From Paraspadella gotoi (taxonomy: Eukaryota; Animalia; Chaetognatha): a stretch of DNA of 64,000 bases. The position numbers and the translations under genes were made by a program. The stretch lies in the NCBI GenBank assembly GCA_051294375.1, contig CM119267.1, positions 14,439,694-14,503,693 of the forward strand, written 5' to 3'. How positions within the stretch are numbered: position 1 is the first letter of the stretch; each line of letters starts with the position of its first letter. A model generated the notes under the pieces. It was given only the letters and a program-made list of their open reading frames with translations, was not told where the DNA came from and made no database searches. Below, in pieces: positions 34,564 to 41,567 of this stretch.

Positions 34564-37500
34564 ATGACGGAAGTTGAGCCGAAAGCGGGTGATCCAGAGG
34601 ATGCGGGACTCAAGATAGGCAACAAACTCAGCGTCGATCGTCTTGATCTCCAGGGGAAACGTGTCCTCATCAGGTAATCTAGCTTTATTTTTGTCGACGT
34701 GGGTCACATTATAAAAGTACACTTAAGTAAATATAATTTAAAATTTTTTTTTTCGTTTTTAGGGTGGATTTCAATGTTCCTATGAAAGGGACGGAAATCA
34801 CAAATAACCAAAGGTAAACATTTGAAGCGTAAAAAAGGTATAAATGTTTACTTGAAGGATGTAACTTTTTAAAATCTTGTATATTAAAATTTTTTATATT
34901 TTATAATTTTGCAGAATCGTGGCTGCCCTTCCAACCATCGAACATGTTCTCGATGCTGGCGCGCGTTCCGTTGTCGTCATGTCACACCTCGGCCGACCCG
35001 ACGGCAAGAGAGTGGAACAATTTTCTTTGGCTCCAGTCGCTAAAGAATTGCAAAAGCTTTTGGGAAGGTGATCGCGGAATGAGATGATTAACTTTTAAAG
35101 GGGGTGTGAACTATGAATTAGATTTGAAAAGAGAATAAAATTAAACTAATCGTAATCGACGACATCGTGCAGGCCAGTGGTATTTTTGAAAGATTGCGTC
35201 GGAAAAGAAGTCGAAGAATTTTGTGAATCTCCTCCTCCCGGCGCCGTCATTCTTTTAGAAAATCTTCGATTTCACGTCGAGGAGGAAGGAAAGGGAAAAG
35301 CTCTTGATGGAAAAACCGTGAAAGCCAAACCTGAGGACGTAGAAGCTTTCAGGTGAGGTCAAAAAGGTAATGTTTTAAAGTAGTCGCTCACCATCATTTT
35401 AAGCATCCTCCTTTTTTAGAGAATCTCTTTCCAAACTCGGCGATGTTTACGTCAACGACGCTTTTGGAACCGCCCACCGTGCCCATAGTTCTATGGTGGG
35501 TATTGTTCATGAGCAGCGGGCCTGTGGTTTTCTCATGAAGCGCGAACTTTCTTATTTCGCCATGGCGCTTGAGACGCCAGAGGCTCCGTTTTTAGCAATT
35601 TTGGGAGGGTAAGTCTTTCGTGTTTAATGACTACTTAAGAAAAAGAGGCGGATTTTTTTCGTTTGATGGCGATACTTCCATATCTGTTTTCAGAGCCAAA
35701 GTGAAGGACAAGATCCAACTGATTGAAAATATGTTGGACAAGGTCAACGAGATGATCATCGTGGGCGGCATGGCTTTTACTTTTCTAAAAGTTCTCCAGG
35801 GCATGGAGATCGGCGCTTCGCTCTATGACGAAGATGGCGCTGGAATCGTCCCTCGCATCATGGAAAAGGCGGAGGCAAACGGAGTTTTAATTCATTTCCC
35901 CGTGGACTTTGTCATCGGCGACAAGTTTGACAAAGACGCGGCCGTGGGCTCCGCCGACATCGAATCTGGGTGATGAGAGAATTACGGCGAGAGGATTTCG
36001 TTTCGAAGTGGAGGATTTGATTTGCTAATTGGTTTCTCTACGTCACCGGTTCAGCATTCCTCAAGGGTGGATGGGGCTGGATATCGGGACGAGGTCGACG
36101 GTTATTTTCGAAGAGATAATCAGTCGTGCCAATCTCATTCTGTGGAACGGCCCCGCCGGCGTTTTTGAGTGGGACCATTTCGAAAAAGGGACCATTGGTA
36201 ATGTAAGGTCGTATTTTTCCCCAGCTGCTTTTAACCACTTGCTCTTTTGACCACCCTTAGCTCTTTCATCTTAGGTCTCATGAACGCTGTGGTCAAGGCC
36301 ACGGACAGAGGAGCGACCACTATCATCGGTGGAGGCGACACCGCCACATGTGCTAAAAAGTACAACACCGAACAGAAGGTGTCCCATGTTTCCACAGGTG
36401 AAAACTATGTATTAAACTTTTCGCTGAACCTGTAAGATTGATATTTCTTCGTAGAACTAATTAATTAAATCTCTGTATAACTTTAAATTGTATTGTTGCA
36501 TAAAAATTTAGGCGGCGGCGCATCTTTGGAACTATTAGAGGGAAAAGACCTTCCCGGCGTCGCGGCCTTGTCCCCCGGCCTTCCATCCATTTCAGGCGGC
36601 ATCAACGGCTTTGGCAGAATTGGACGCCTAATCCTTCGGGCTTCCCTCGAAAAAGGTCGTTTGTGCAACAAGAAATTTCTTGTAAATTCTCTGATTTTGC
36701 GAATAGGTTTTTCCTGTAACATAAAATAGGTGGTTTCAACATCAACGTTATTAACGATCCGTTCATAAACGTCGCTTACATGGTCTACATGTTTAAATAT
36801 GACTCTACCCACGGCCAGTTCAAGGTATAAATTGATCACATGTATTCCTCTTCACGATTCCGTCTCCATCAACGAAGCTACTAACGTGTTAATTTTTGTT
36901 GTCGTCGCAGGGATCTGTTTCGGCTGCTGGTAACTCTATCATCGTTGACGGTCGTAAGATCCATGTCTTTAACGAAAAAGATCCAAGCAACATTCCGTGG
37001 GGCCAATACCGTGCTGATTACATCGTTGACTCAACTGGTAAGTTTAACTTGTTTATTAGACTTCCAGTTGCATCGAATTGTAGAAGACGAAAAATACAGT
37101 ATGATTTTTCTCAATTGTAACATTTCCTGTAGCGATATCTCAGAGTCCCTTCAACCTAGATACTTAAATTATGGCTCATTTTATAGCCCGCCGTCTGGCA
37201 TTTTTAAATTGTTAATTTTTAGTCGGATCTGCTTATAAGCAGATACCGACTCTATAATTCACTTTGTCTGTCCGTCGGTCCGCCCCCTCAATATATCATG
37301 TCAGATTATCGAATTATAATAAATTATGCAAAAAAAACGATGTCCGTCCGTCTGTCTGTGTCTGTCCGTCCCACCTTAGCCAAGTCCGATTACTCGAGAT
37401 TGGAGGGATGGATTGGAATGAAATTTTGTGTGTGGGTAAGGAAGTGTGTGATTGAGCTGGATATGAAGTTTCGATGGAATCGTCCGAGTGGAAATGCGTT

Positions 37501-40500: not shown

Positions 40501-41567
40501 TTATTTCAAACTTATAGGTAGTATCTAATGCATCATGCACTACCAACTGTCTTGCGCCTTTGGCAAAAATCGTTAACGACAACTGGGGCATTGAGGAAGG
40601 ACTGATGACCACGGTCCACGCTTTCACGGCCACGCAAAAAACGGTCGACGGTCCCTCAATAAAAGCCTGGCGCGACGGGCGGGGTGCCGCTCAGAACATC
40701 ATCCCGGCTGCCACCGGAGCCGCCAAGGCGGTCGGCAAGGTGCTTAAAAAATTTGTTAACATTTTTTGAACCATTTTTTGGGTTTTTGTACTGGCCCAAA
40801 CTTTTTGCAGGTGATCCCCGATCTGAACAACAAATTGACTGGGATGGCGTTTCGCGTTCCCACCCCTGACGTCTCGGTCGTAGATTTGACCTGCCGTCTC
40901 AAACGAGAAGCGTCCTACGCTGAGATTAAGCAAAAGATAAAAGAGGCGTCCGAGTCTGGGCCGCTAAAGGGCATCTTGGGCTACACAGAGTCTCAAGCCG
41001 TCTCCTCGGACTTTCTGGGAGACAAGAGGTCTTCGATTTTCGATGCCGGTAATTTTTATTAATGGACGTTAGAGCATTAGTGCAGGAGTTAAGTCATTAG
41101 CCTCTCAACCCAAAGGTCCGGGGTTATAGCCCGGTGGTCGCCTAGCAGTTAAGAGGGACTGGGCGCTTAACCCGGTAACACGGTGTTACAGCCTGATCCG
41201 AAGCTCAGGGACTGCTTATATTATTAACTAATAAAAATAATTACTGTCTCTTCATATCGATAAAATCAGAAACGAAATAAGTTTGTTTTCATTCCAAACA
41301 TTTCGTAAAAGTTTGTCCAATATACGCATTTTGATGTTGATGAAAAGTATCTATTGTTTTGTTTTTTTCCTGATGCCAGGCGCTGGAATTGCTTTAAACA
41401 ACAGATTCGTCAAGCTTGTCTCATGGTACGACAACGAATACGGTTATTCTCATCGATTGGTCGACCTTATTCTCTACATGGCTCAAGAAGACCAAAAGGC
41501 TGAAGAGGCGGCCGCTGCTGCAGCTGCAGCTGCGGCGGAAGCAGCAGCTGCTGAAGCTGCTGCTTGA
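34564..41567 (+). CDS. PGK-GAPDH: Phosphoglycerate kinase-glyceraldehyde-3-phosphate dehydrogenase fusion protein (about 16 exons)
   Basis: [53 protein letters not shown]. The same exon (36512-36655) continues with no stop into [58 protein letters not shown]. Confidence 0.92.
37097..38731. mobile_element. Tc1/mariner-like non-autonomous element in GAPDH intron, containing a nested HINE
   Basis: TA|cagtatgatttttctc ... gagaaaaatcatactg|TA TIRs, with further inverted match gtctggcatttt/aaaatgccagac. Confidence 0.7.
37221..37880 (+). mobile_element. HINE/DINE-1-like element (family B)
   Basis: 5' hairpin agtcggatctgcttataagcagataccgact, (GTCY)n microsatellite, duplicated core, 3' subterminal gcagatccg; T-rich flanks. 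Confidence 0.7.
39489..39935. mobile_element. Solo LTR-like element, copy 1
   Basis: tgttagggggcgaatcctgcgtaccccctaac ... cacgaaagtttcttcccgaca; TG..CA ends; homologous to 42518-42921; no matching TSD. Confidence 0.75.
40164..40365 (+). mobile_element. tRNA-derived SINE-like element, copy 1
   Basis: Head with T-arm/B-box-like ccgggttctagcccgg and an anticodon-arm remnant ttgcctcacaacccaaa (tRNA-Val-like), followed by a conserved body; second copy at 41063-41258. Confidence 0.7.
41063..41258 (+). mobile_element. tRNA-derived SINE-like element, copy 2
   Basis: Shares caacccaaaggtcc..gcccggtggtcgcc..gcagttaagagggactgggc..ggtgttacagcctgatccgaagctcagggactgctt with copy 1. Confidence 0.7.

What the first reader, a model, noticed from the sequence alone, without database searches (positions are those of the whole stretch)
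34564..41567. In-frame PGK-GAPDH fusion gene in an apparent animal genome
Seen: exon 36512-36655 reads [48 protein letters not shown], joining the PGK C-terminus to the GAPDH Rossmann start with no stop, no Met and no intron at the junction. Both halves look full length, including the catalytic ASCTTNC. Known: the enzymes catalyse consecutive steps and share the labile 1,3-bisphosphoglycerate; glycolytic fusions are known in microbes (TPI-GAPDH in stramenopiles, PGK-TPI in Thermotoga), but I do not know this one from animals. Inference: a GAPDH tetramer carrying four PGK domains as a hard-wired ATP-generating module, possibly formed by losing the spacer between operon neighbours.
Basis: partly seen in the sequence, partly recalled or inferred. 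Interest (0 to 1): 0.9.

Follow-up and report, generated by a model that had tools for sequence, protein, structure and literature searches.

The report
Animal gene fusing PGK and GAPDH
An invertebrate gene, spliced into RNA and conserved in related species, joins two consecutive glycolytic enzymes (PGK and GAPDH) in one reading frame, and its product likely assembles as a GAPDH tetramer carrying four kinases, a natural test case for whether the unstable intermediate is handed directly between them.

Summary
Confirmed. A 15-exon gene (34564-41567, +, all GT-AG) encodes 791 aa: full PGK, a 9-residue joint inside exon 9, then full GAPDH, with all 16 catalytic motifs checked intact. Contigs of an RNA-type run of the same organism skip 13 of the 14 introns exactly, and one spliced contig runs 59 nt past the PGK end into GAPDH without a difference. 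A second organism shows the same spacing. Fifteen unnamed relatives (about 80% identical) keep the order and joint length. The GAPDH half groups with insect GAPDH; the PGK half is unresolved in trees. The pairing is not unique: giant viruses have it in reverse order (PMC7136201), and ciliate and dinoflagellate database proteins have it independently. My searches found no report from animals. The host is likely a spiralian, possibly an arrow worm (inferred). Protein, tetramer, channelling and an operon origin are inferred, not shown. A second GAPDH gene exists in this organism. Verdict: new variant of a known kind, interest 0.65.

The parts
34564..41567 (+). PGK-GAPDH fusion gene, ATG to stop, 15 exons, 791 aa
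   Evidence: gene model; introns 1-11 as joints and 13-14 as contiguous contig pieces in run X9; intron 12 inferred from the model
34564..36397 (+). PGK exons 1-8: 34564-34673, 34763-34813, 34915-35067, 35173-35352, 35420-35608, 35694-35969, 36055-36197, 36275-36397
   Evidence: exon 6 hits mammalian PGK best among solved structures
36512..36655 (+). Exon 9, the junction exon: PGK C-terminus to 36573, joint, GAPDH GING motif from 36598
   Evidence: spliced contig covers 36510-36632 with 0 differences
36730..41567 (+). GAPDH exons 10-15: 36730-36824, 36911-37037, 39037-39173, 40518-40739 (catalytic Cys motif from 40524), 40811-41048, 41380-41567 (ends in an acidic, Ala-rich tail)
36590..36595 (+). 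Acceptor-like TTTCAG at the PGK/GAPDH boundary, in phase with the exon 9 acceptor; use not seen
   Evidence: highest score of 111 exonic AG sites (7.7) under a matrix from the gene's 14 acceptors, site picked before scoring; no joint or loose end there in X9
37095..38733 (.). Repeat element with 30-nt terminal inverted repeats that lengthens intron 11
   Evidence: very high repeat depth
41600..41601 (+). Likely splice donor 33 nt behind the stop, where the RNA-type contig leaves the stretch
   Evidence: X9 record 27 (2793 nt) ends its match at 41601, letter 710; GT at 41600

Best explanation
This is one spliced gene with PGK and GAPDH in a single reading frame, conserved across a group of related invertebrates; it is likely translated as one 85 kDa bifunctional chain whose GAPDH halves would form the usual tetramer and so hold four PGK domains at a fixed 1:1 ratio. 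GAPDH would make 1,3-bisphosphoglycerate and the tethered PGK would use it to make ATP. The gain is most likely guaranteed co-expression, co-localisation and a short diffusion path for a labile intermediate (proximity capture), not a sealed tunnel. Shown: gene, splicing, read-through of the junction in RNA-type contigs, intact motifs, conservation. Inferred: translation as one chain, activity of both halves, tetramer, kinetic benefit. The fusion likely arose once in this lineage from the host's own genes, independently of protist and viral fusions.
For: Open 15-exon model. X9 contigs skip 13 of 14 introns at GT..AG and tile the coding region from about 34599 to the stop in three contigs; the spliced PGK contig (depth 843) passes the PGK end by 59 nt and overlaps the GAPDH contig (depth 869) by 30 nt. 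Organism B (run X10): one 2383-nt contig joins 36400 to 36776 with 187 letters between, the spliced distance computed from the model. 15 of the 112 proteins P0002-P0113 form a close group (PGK 81-83%, GAPDH 72-79%; six 90% clusters), all PGK then GAPDH with a 9-residue joint; the group is a clade in both halves (100/99, 100/100). No Met and no stop at the joint. AlphaFold model of relative P0004: mean pLDDT 84.6, halves superpose on human PGK1 (TM 0.97, 72% identity) and GAPDH (TM 0.94, 72-73%). GAPDH half groups with insect GAPDH plus one unnamed row (98/89). Free GAPDH and PGK associate only weakly, Kd about 14 uM (10.1101/2022.09.13.507800, passages).
Against: No protein evidence. X9 is RNA by guess, held as contigs; no single contig spans the gene. 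A second X9 contig (4242 nt, depth 211) enters the same 30-mer 36603-36632 from unrelated, out-of-frame upstream sequence; unexplained, a chimera is my guess. The window's GAPDH first strand is altered (ISG before GING where relatives have VKV, VKI, VKL or VRL), which could weaken that domain. A second GAPDH gene exists in organism A. The PGK half is not resolved with animal PGK: an open fork with snail and dinoflagellate-type PGK, and an unstarred join with the dinoflagellate-type group in a quick tree. pTM is only 0.67, so the relative placement of the halves is not established. Proximity alone raises steady-state rate only for diffusion-limited steps or strong competition (PMC6345930, abstract).
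Confidence: 0.8

Rival explanations
1. True channelling machine: the short conserved joint and the acidic C-terminal helix dock PGK on the GAPDH tetramer so that 1,3-bisphosphoglycerate passes directly between the sites.
For: Joint length is fixed at 9 in the window and 15 relatives and 8 in the ciliate-type group; the acidic Ala-rich tail is in 11 of 11 relatives and is modelled as a helix, 747-778; the pairing arose repeatedly.
Against: Both domain orders occur, with joints of 7 to 58 residues among other fusions, which argues against one required geometry; pTM 0.67; the GAPDH N-terminus lies away from the catalytic Cys (recalled structure knowledge).
Confidence: 0.2
2. The locus also or mainly yields separate products, by use of the internal acceptor at 36596, trans-splicing, or proteolysis at the joint.
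For: The best-scoring exonic AG of 111 sits at the boundary; the window is operon-like; one unexplained contig enters at 36603.
Against: No joint or loose end at 36596 in X9 (contigs drop rare forms, so this is weak); no ATG before GING, so a leader added here would give a GAPDH without its NAD-binding motif; relatives have a different sequence at this place yet keep the frame open.
Confidence: 0.1
3. Near-neutral fixation: two neighbouring housekeeping genes in a co-directional cluster lost their spacer, and the fusion persists because it does no harm and reversal is hard.
For: 21 Pfam-identified genes lie on the + strand and 0 of 33 long minus-strand ORFs hit Pfam; stop-to-ATG gaps of 126-494 nt for 7 pairs measured. 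Compatible with the best explanation as a route of origin.
Against: Repeated independent fusion of this same pair in viruses and protists suggests a benefit; no unfused adjacent pair was seen in a relative.
Confidence: 0.3
4. Assembly artefact, contamination, or transfer of a ready-made fusion from a protist or giant virus.
For: PGK tree unresolved; similar fusions exist in protists and viruses.
Against: Several DNA runs and an RNA-type run agree; 14 spliceosomal introns; animal neighbours; the viral fusion found is in reverse order at 30-35% identity; AU tests reject grouping with ciliate-type fusions on GAPDH (p 0.016) and of all PGK-GAPDH fusions on PGK (p 7e-96), groups named after seeing the trees.
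Confidence: 0.03

Closest known systems
Giant-virus (NCLDV) fused G3P+PGK gene, 16 genomes (PMC7136201, passages; PMC9270025, passages)
   Same: The same two adjacent glycolytic enzymes in one chain; untested biochemically according to the 2022 review passage.
   Different: The viral example I recovered (L137) is GAPDH then PGK, intronless, 30-35% identical. [quoted passage not shown]
PGK-GAPDH proteins of the ciliate Nyctotherus ovalis (P0082) and the dinoflagellate Biecheleria cincta (P0007), EukProt entries
   Same: Same order, 8-residue joint.
   Different: Halves only 47-62% identical to the window and in other clades. They are transcriptome predictions that I did not verify; my one search on the ciliate names found no description.
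TPI-GAPDH fusion of stramenopiles and cercozoans (PMC3527533, passages)
   Same: An enzyme for an adjacent step fused to the GAPDH N-terminus in eukaryotes.
   Different: Partner is the upstream enzyme and the protein is mitochondrion-targeted; here the N-terminus is short and acidic.
Thermotoga PGK-TIM fusion (PMC7729029, passages)
   Same: PGK joined by its C-terminus to an oligomeric glycolytic enzyme, giving a tetramer.
   Different: Bacterial; non-consecutive steps.
Transient GAPDH-PGK complex of mammalian and yeast enzymes (10.1101/2022.09.13.507800, passages; PMC4192631, passages)
   Same: Same enzymes, about 72% identical to the human ones (relative P0004).
   Different: Non-covalent and weak; here covalent and 1:1.

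Membership tests
Phosphoglycerate kinase (PF00162) | Full-length two-domain profile match | tested here: met
   Relative P0004 matches profile 1-379 of 379; window exons cover P0004 by tblastn, 81% identity
Phosphoglycerate kinase (PF00162) | Basic patch, ATP-site lysines, NGP..E, GGGDT and GGGAS motifs | tested here: met
   9 of 9 motifs in the window (motif list recalled)
GAPDH class I (PF00044 + PF02800) | GxGxxG, NAD aspartate, catalytic Cys and His, Arg, WYDNE | tested here: met
   7 of 7 motifs; both profiles on P0004; the strand before GING is atypical in the window
GAPDH class I | Homotetramer, NAD-dependent activity | not testable with these tools
NCLDV G3P+PGK fusion | Viral context, GAPDH-then-PGK order as in L137, kinship of halves | tested here: not met
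   Reverse order, introns, animal neighbours, 30-35% identity
Protist PGK-GAPDH fusions | Common origin (one clade in both halves) | tested here: not met
   GAPDH half with insects; AU p 0.016 and 7e-96, groups named after the trees; animal versus dinoflagellate-type PGK alone was not tested
Trans-splicing-resolved operon | Co-directional genes with short gaps | tested here: met
Trans-splicing-resolved operon | Spliced leader on downstream mRNAs, polycistronic precursor | tested here: inconclusive
   The PGK contig stops inside exon 1; no listed loose end resembles the leaders in PMC2481426 Table 3 (1136 loose ends were not shown)
Channelling bifunctional enzyme | Intermediate not equilibrating with bulk solvent | not testable with these tools
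   needs kinetics

The most novel reading that the evidence does not exclude
A whole animal phylum (likely arrow worms) runs the ATP-yielding step of glycolysis on a covalent GAPDH4-PGK4 particle, born from operon neighbours, in which the fixed joint and an acidic C-terminal helix orient PGK to take 1,3-bisphosphoglycerate directly from GAPDH: the first natural, human-like structure of the long-proposed GAPDH-PGK channelling complex.
Probability: 0.2. Interest if true: 0.85.

Novelty: new variant of a known kind. Interest (0 to 1): 0.65.

Why it matters
Core glycolytic enzymes are separate proteins in the animals usually studied (recalled). A fusion kept across several related species gives a stable, 1:1, roughly 72% human-like version of a GAPDH-PGK complex that is otherwise weak and transient, so it can be purified, imaged by cryo-EM and compared with its split halves to test channelling of 1,3-bisphosphoglycerate. 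It also corrects the published view that this pairing is peculiar to giant viruses: it recurs in an animal lineage and in protists, in both orders, which points to convergence. The joint is a candidate clade marker for the host group.

Tried and rejected
No whole genome is held, so a stand-alone PGK could not be searched for; no second PGK-like X9 record lay on exon 8-9 at 80% likeness, which proves nothing. No holder is on record as RNA; X9 is RNA by guess, supported here by its GT..AG joints. A viral scan with P0004 found nothing; with the alignment, 63 loci, 1 fused ORF. The complex prediction of the two halves was not available. The Atlas gave fusion clusters with mostly viral records for the whole protein and nothing for the junction. 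The representative search gave 11 of 150 proteins with both domains, 10 in GAPDH-PGK order, none named. Rfam: 0 matches in the window. Earlier findings: none relevant. Literature: searches found no animal or protist PGK-GAPDH fusion; the library lacks most subscription journals. In PMC12460157 the main text has no GAPDH mention and 3 held supplementary files none of my terms; gene tables not held could bear on this. Trees used chosen subsets: 47 then 28 of 136 PGK rows, 32 of 168 GAPDH rows; near-duplicates, fragments, most bacteria and long branches were left out. The careful 47-row PGK tree did not finish. Rejected: misassembly, hidden intron at the joint (RNA-type contig is colinear through it), viral or ciliate origin.

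Full report
Observation. The junction is as described. The frame 36487-36729 reads from the PGK C-terminal motif into the GAPDH GING motif with no stop, and exon 9 holds no ATG. A 15-exon model with only GT-AG introns gives 791 aa, 84.7 kDa. All 16 catalytic or binding motifs I checked, 9 for PGK and 7 for GAPDH, are present in the window and in 11 of 11 full-length relatives (motif list recalled).

Not an artefact. Nine runs of organism A, from three studies, hold the stretch; seven may be its source. DNA contigs from X1 and X8 cross the junction in one piece. Run X9, RNA by guess and from another study, shows joints matching introns 1-11 and contiguous pieces across introns 13 and 14; intron 12 rests on the model. 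One spliced X9 contig carries PGK exons and continues to 36632 with no difference, 59 nt past the last PGK codon, and overlaps the GAPDH contig by 30 nt; their depths are 843 and 869. These are contigs, not reads, and no single one spans the gene. A further X9 contig (4242 nt, depth 211) shares only 36603-36632 and has unrelated, out-of-frame sequence before it; I cannot explain it and suspect a chimera.

Conservation. In run X10 (organism B) one contig joins PGK exon 8 to GAPDH exon 10 sequence with 187 letters between, which equals the spliced distance in my model. In run X11 (organism C) the contig laid has an ATG four codons before GING, so a stand-alone GAPDH; whether C is a relative is unknown. 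Protein searches gave 112 proteins, of which 15, in six 90% clusters, are 81-83% identical in PGK and 72-79% in GAPDH, with the same order and a 9-residue joint. They are unnamed (JGI, Logan, merc). They form a clade with the window in both halves, the window being sister to the rest. All 11 examined share an acidic, mostly Ala-rich C-terminal tail.

Host. Neighbouring genes are animal housekeeping genes. The eIF3k exon is 77-86% identical to five unnamed proteins and at most 62% to named animals among the 120 of 310 hits listed. In a quick unrooted tree that group lies on the spiralian side of a 99-supported branch (33 rows). All 21 Pfam-identified genes lie on the + strand, 0 of 33 long minus-strand ORFs hit Pfam, seven measured stop-to-ATG gaps are 126-494 nt, and CpG is not depleted. 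Arrow worms have operons of housekeeping genes, trans-splicing and methylation moved away from gene bodies (PMC12460157, passages and section 5; PMC2481426, passages and section 12). I therefore put arrow worms at about 60-65%; this is inference from circumstantial features, not a test.

Origin. The GAPDH half groups with three insect GAPDHs and one unnamed row (98/89). The PGK half is unresolved: an open fork with snail and dinoflagellate-type PGK, and a weak join with the latter in a quick tree. Identity favours animals: relative P0004 is 72% to human PGK1, 62% to yeast, 58-59% to Plasmodium. From recall of human PGK1 exon sizes, 4 of the 8 PGK-half introns (1, 2, 3, 5) lie at shared positions; no call tested this. 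AU tests reject a common origin with the ciliate-type fusions on GAPDH (p 0.016) and of all PGK-GAPDH fusions on PGK (p 7e-96); both groups were named after I saw the trees, and the second does not by itself separate the animal from the dinoflagellate-type PGK. An operon origin fits the gene layout but no unfused neighbour pair was seen.

Mechanism. An AlphaFold model of relative P0004 (39-row alignment) folds both halves normally (mean pLDDT 84.6; TM 0.97 and 0.94 to the human enzymes), with the tail as a helix; pTM 0.67 leaves their relative placement open. None of the 60 solved sequences shown matches both halves. GAPDH is a tetramer and PGK a monomer as a rule (PMC7729029 abstract for PGK; GAPDH recalled), so the likely product is a 340 kDa particle with four kinases. 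I commit to a bifunctional chain that fixes ratio and location and captures the labile intermediate by proximity (0.8 for the chain; direct channelling 0.2). Against a required geometry, other fusions use both orders and joints of 7-58 residues, and proximity helps at steady state only under diffusion limits or competition (PMC6345930, abstract). The fusion is not the only GAPDH: a second gene appears in both X8 and X9. One oddity: the window's joint differs from relatives and contains the best-scoring exonic acceptor-like site of 111, with no use seen in X9.

Known and new. A fused G3P+PGK gene was reported in 16 giant-virus genomes as not seen in cellular lineages (PMC7136201, passages; repeated in PMC9270025, passages). 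The viral example I found is in reverse order and 30-35% identical. Database proteins of a ciliate and a dinoflagellate carry the same order as here, unverified. Searches found no description in animals or protists; the library omits most subscription journals, and supplementary gene tables that were not held may list the gene.

Verdict. Real, spliced and conserved; a new animal variant of a known kind of glycolytic fusion, likely of independent origin. Interest 0.65; 0.85 if it proves a phylum-wide channelling particle (probability 0.2).

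Noticed in passing
window 2500-63645: All 21 Pfam-identified genes lie on the + strand with short gaps, and 0 of 33 long minus-strand ORFs hit Pfam: an unusually long co-directional housekeeping cluster, possibly several operons.
   Followed up: partly
window 41600-41601: An RNA-type contig leaves the locus at a GT 33 nt behind the stop and carries 2083 more letters: spliced 3' UTR or read-through into downstream genes; a candidate acceptor lies near 41856.
   Followed up: no
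run X9 record 8 and run X8 record 4, laid at window 36777-36825: A second GAPDH gene of the same organism with an intron at the same place; its RNA-type contig has about 2.7 kb upstream of this point, so it may be another fusion or a multi-gene contig.
   Followed up: no
window 36590-36600: The joint is changed against relatives (ISG for VKV-like) and holds the best exonic acceptor-like site of the gene, in phase with exon 9.
   Followed up: partly
proteins P0012, P0015, P0085, P0092: Closely related dinoflagellate-type proteins occur in both orders, PGK-GAPDH and GAPDH-PGK, suggesting tandem polyprotein-like arrays.
   Followed up: no
proteins P0002, P0004, P0059 and kin: Most relatives carry a short Cys-containing acidic N-terminal extension that the window's protein lacks.
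   Followed up: no
L092 3004-5274: A giant-virus contig with PGK and GAPDH adjacent in one frame but separated by a stop, a possible pre-fusion state.
   Followed up: no
window 37095-38733, 39489-39880, 40169-40319, 41075-41222, 42518-42900: High-copy repeats in introns 11, 12 and 14 and downstream: one element with terminal inverted repeats and two dispersed families with two copies each here.
   Followed up: no
window 58366-63645: Three tandem paralogous C2H2 zinc-finger genes with a shared N-terminal region of no Pfam match.
   Followed up: no
window 14603-25901 and 30791-34276: ZZEF1-like and mitochondrial RNA polymerase genes have very long exons, whereas the fusion gene keeps 14 introns.
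   Followed up: no
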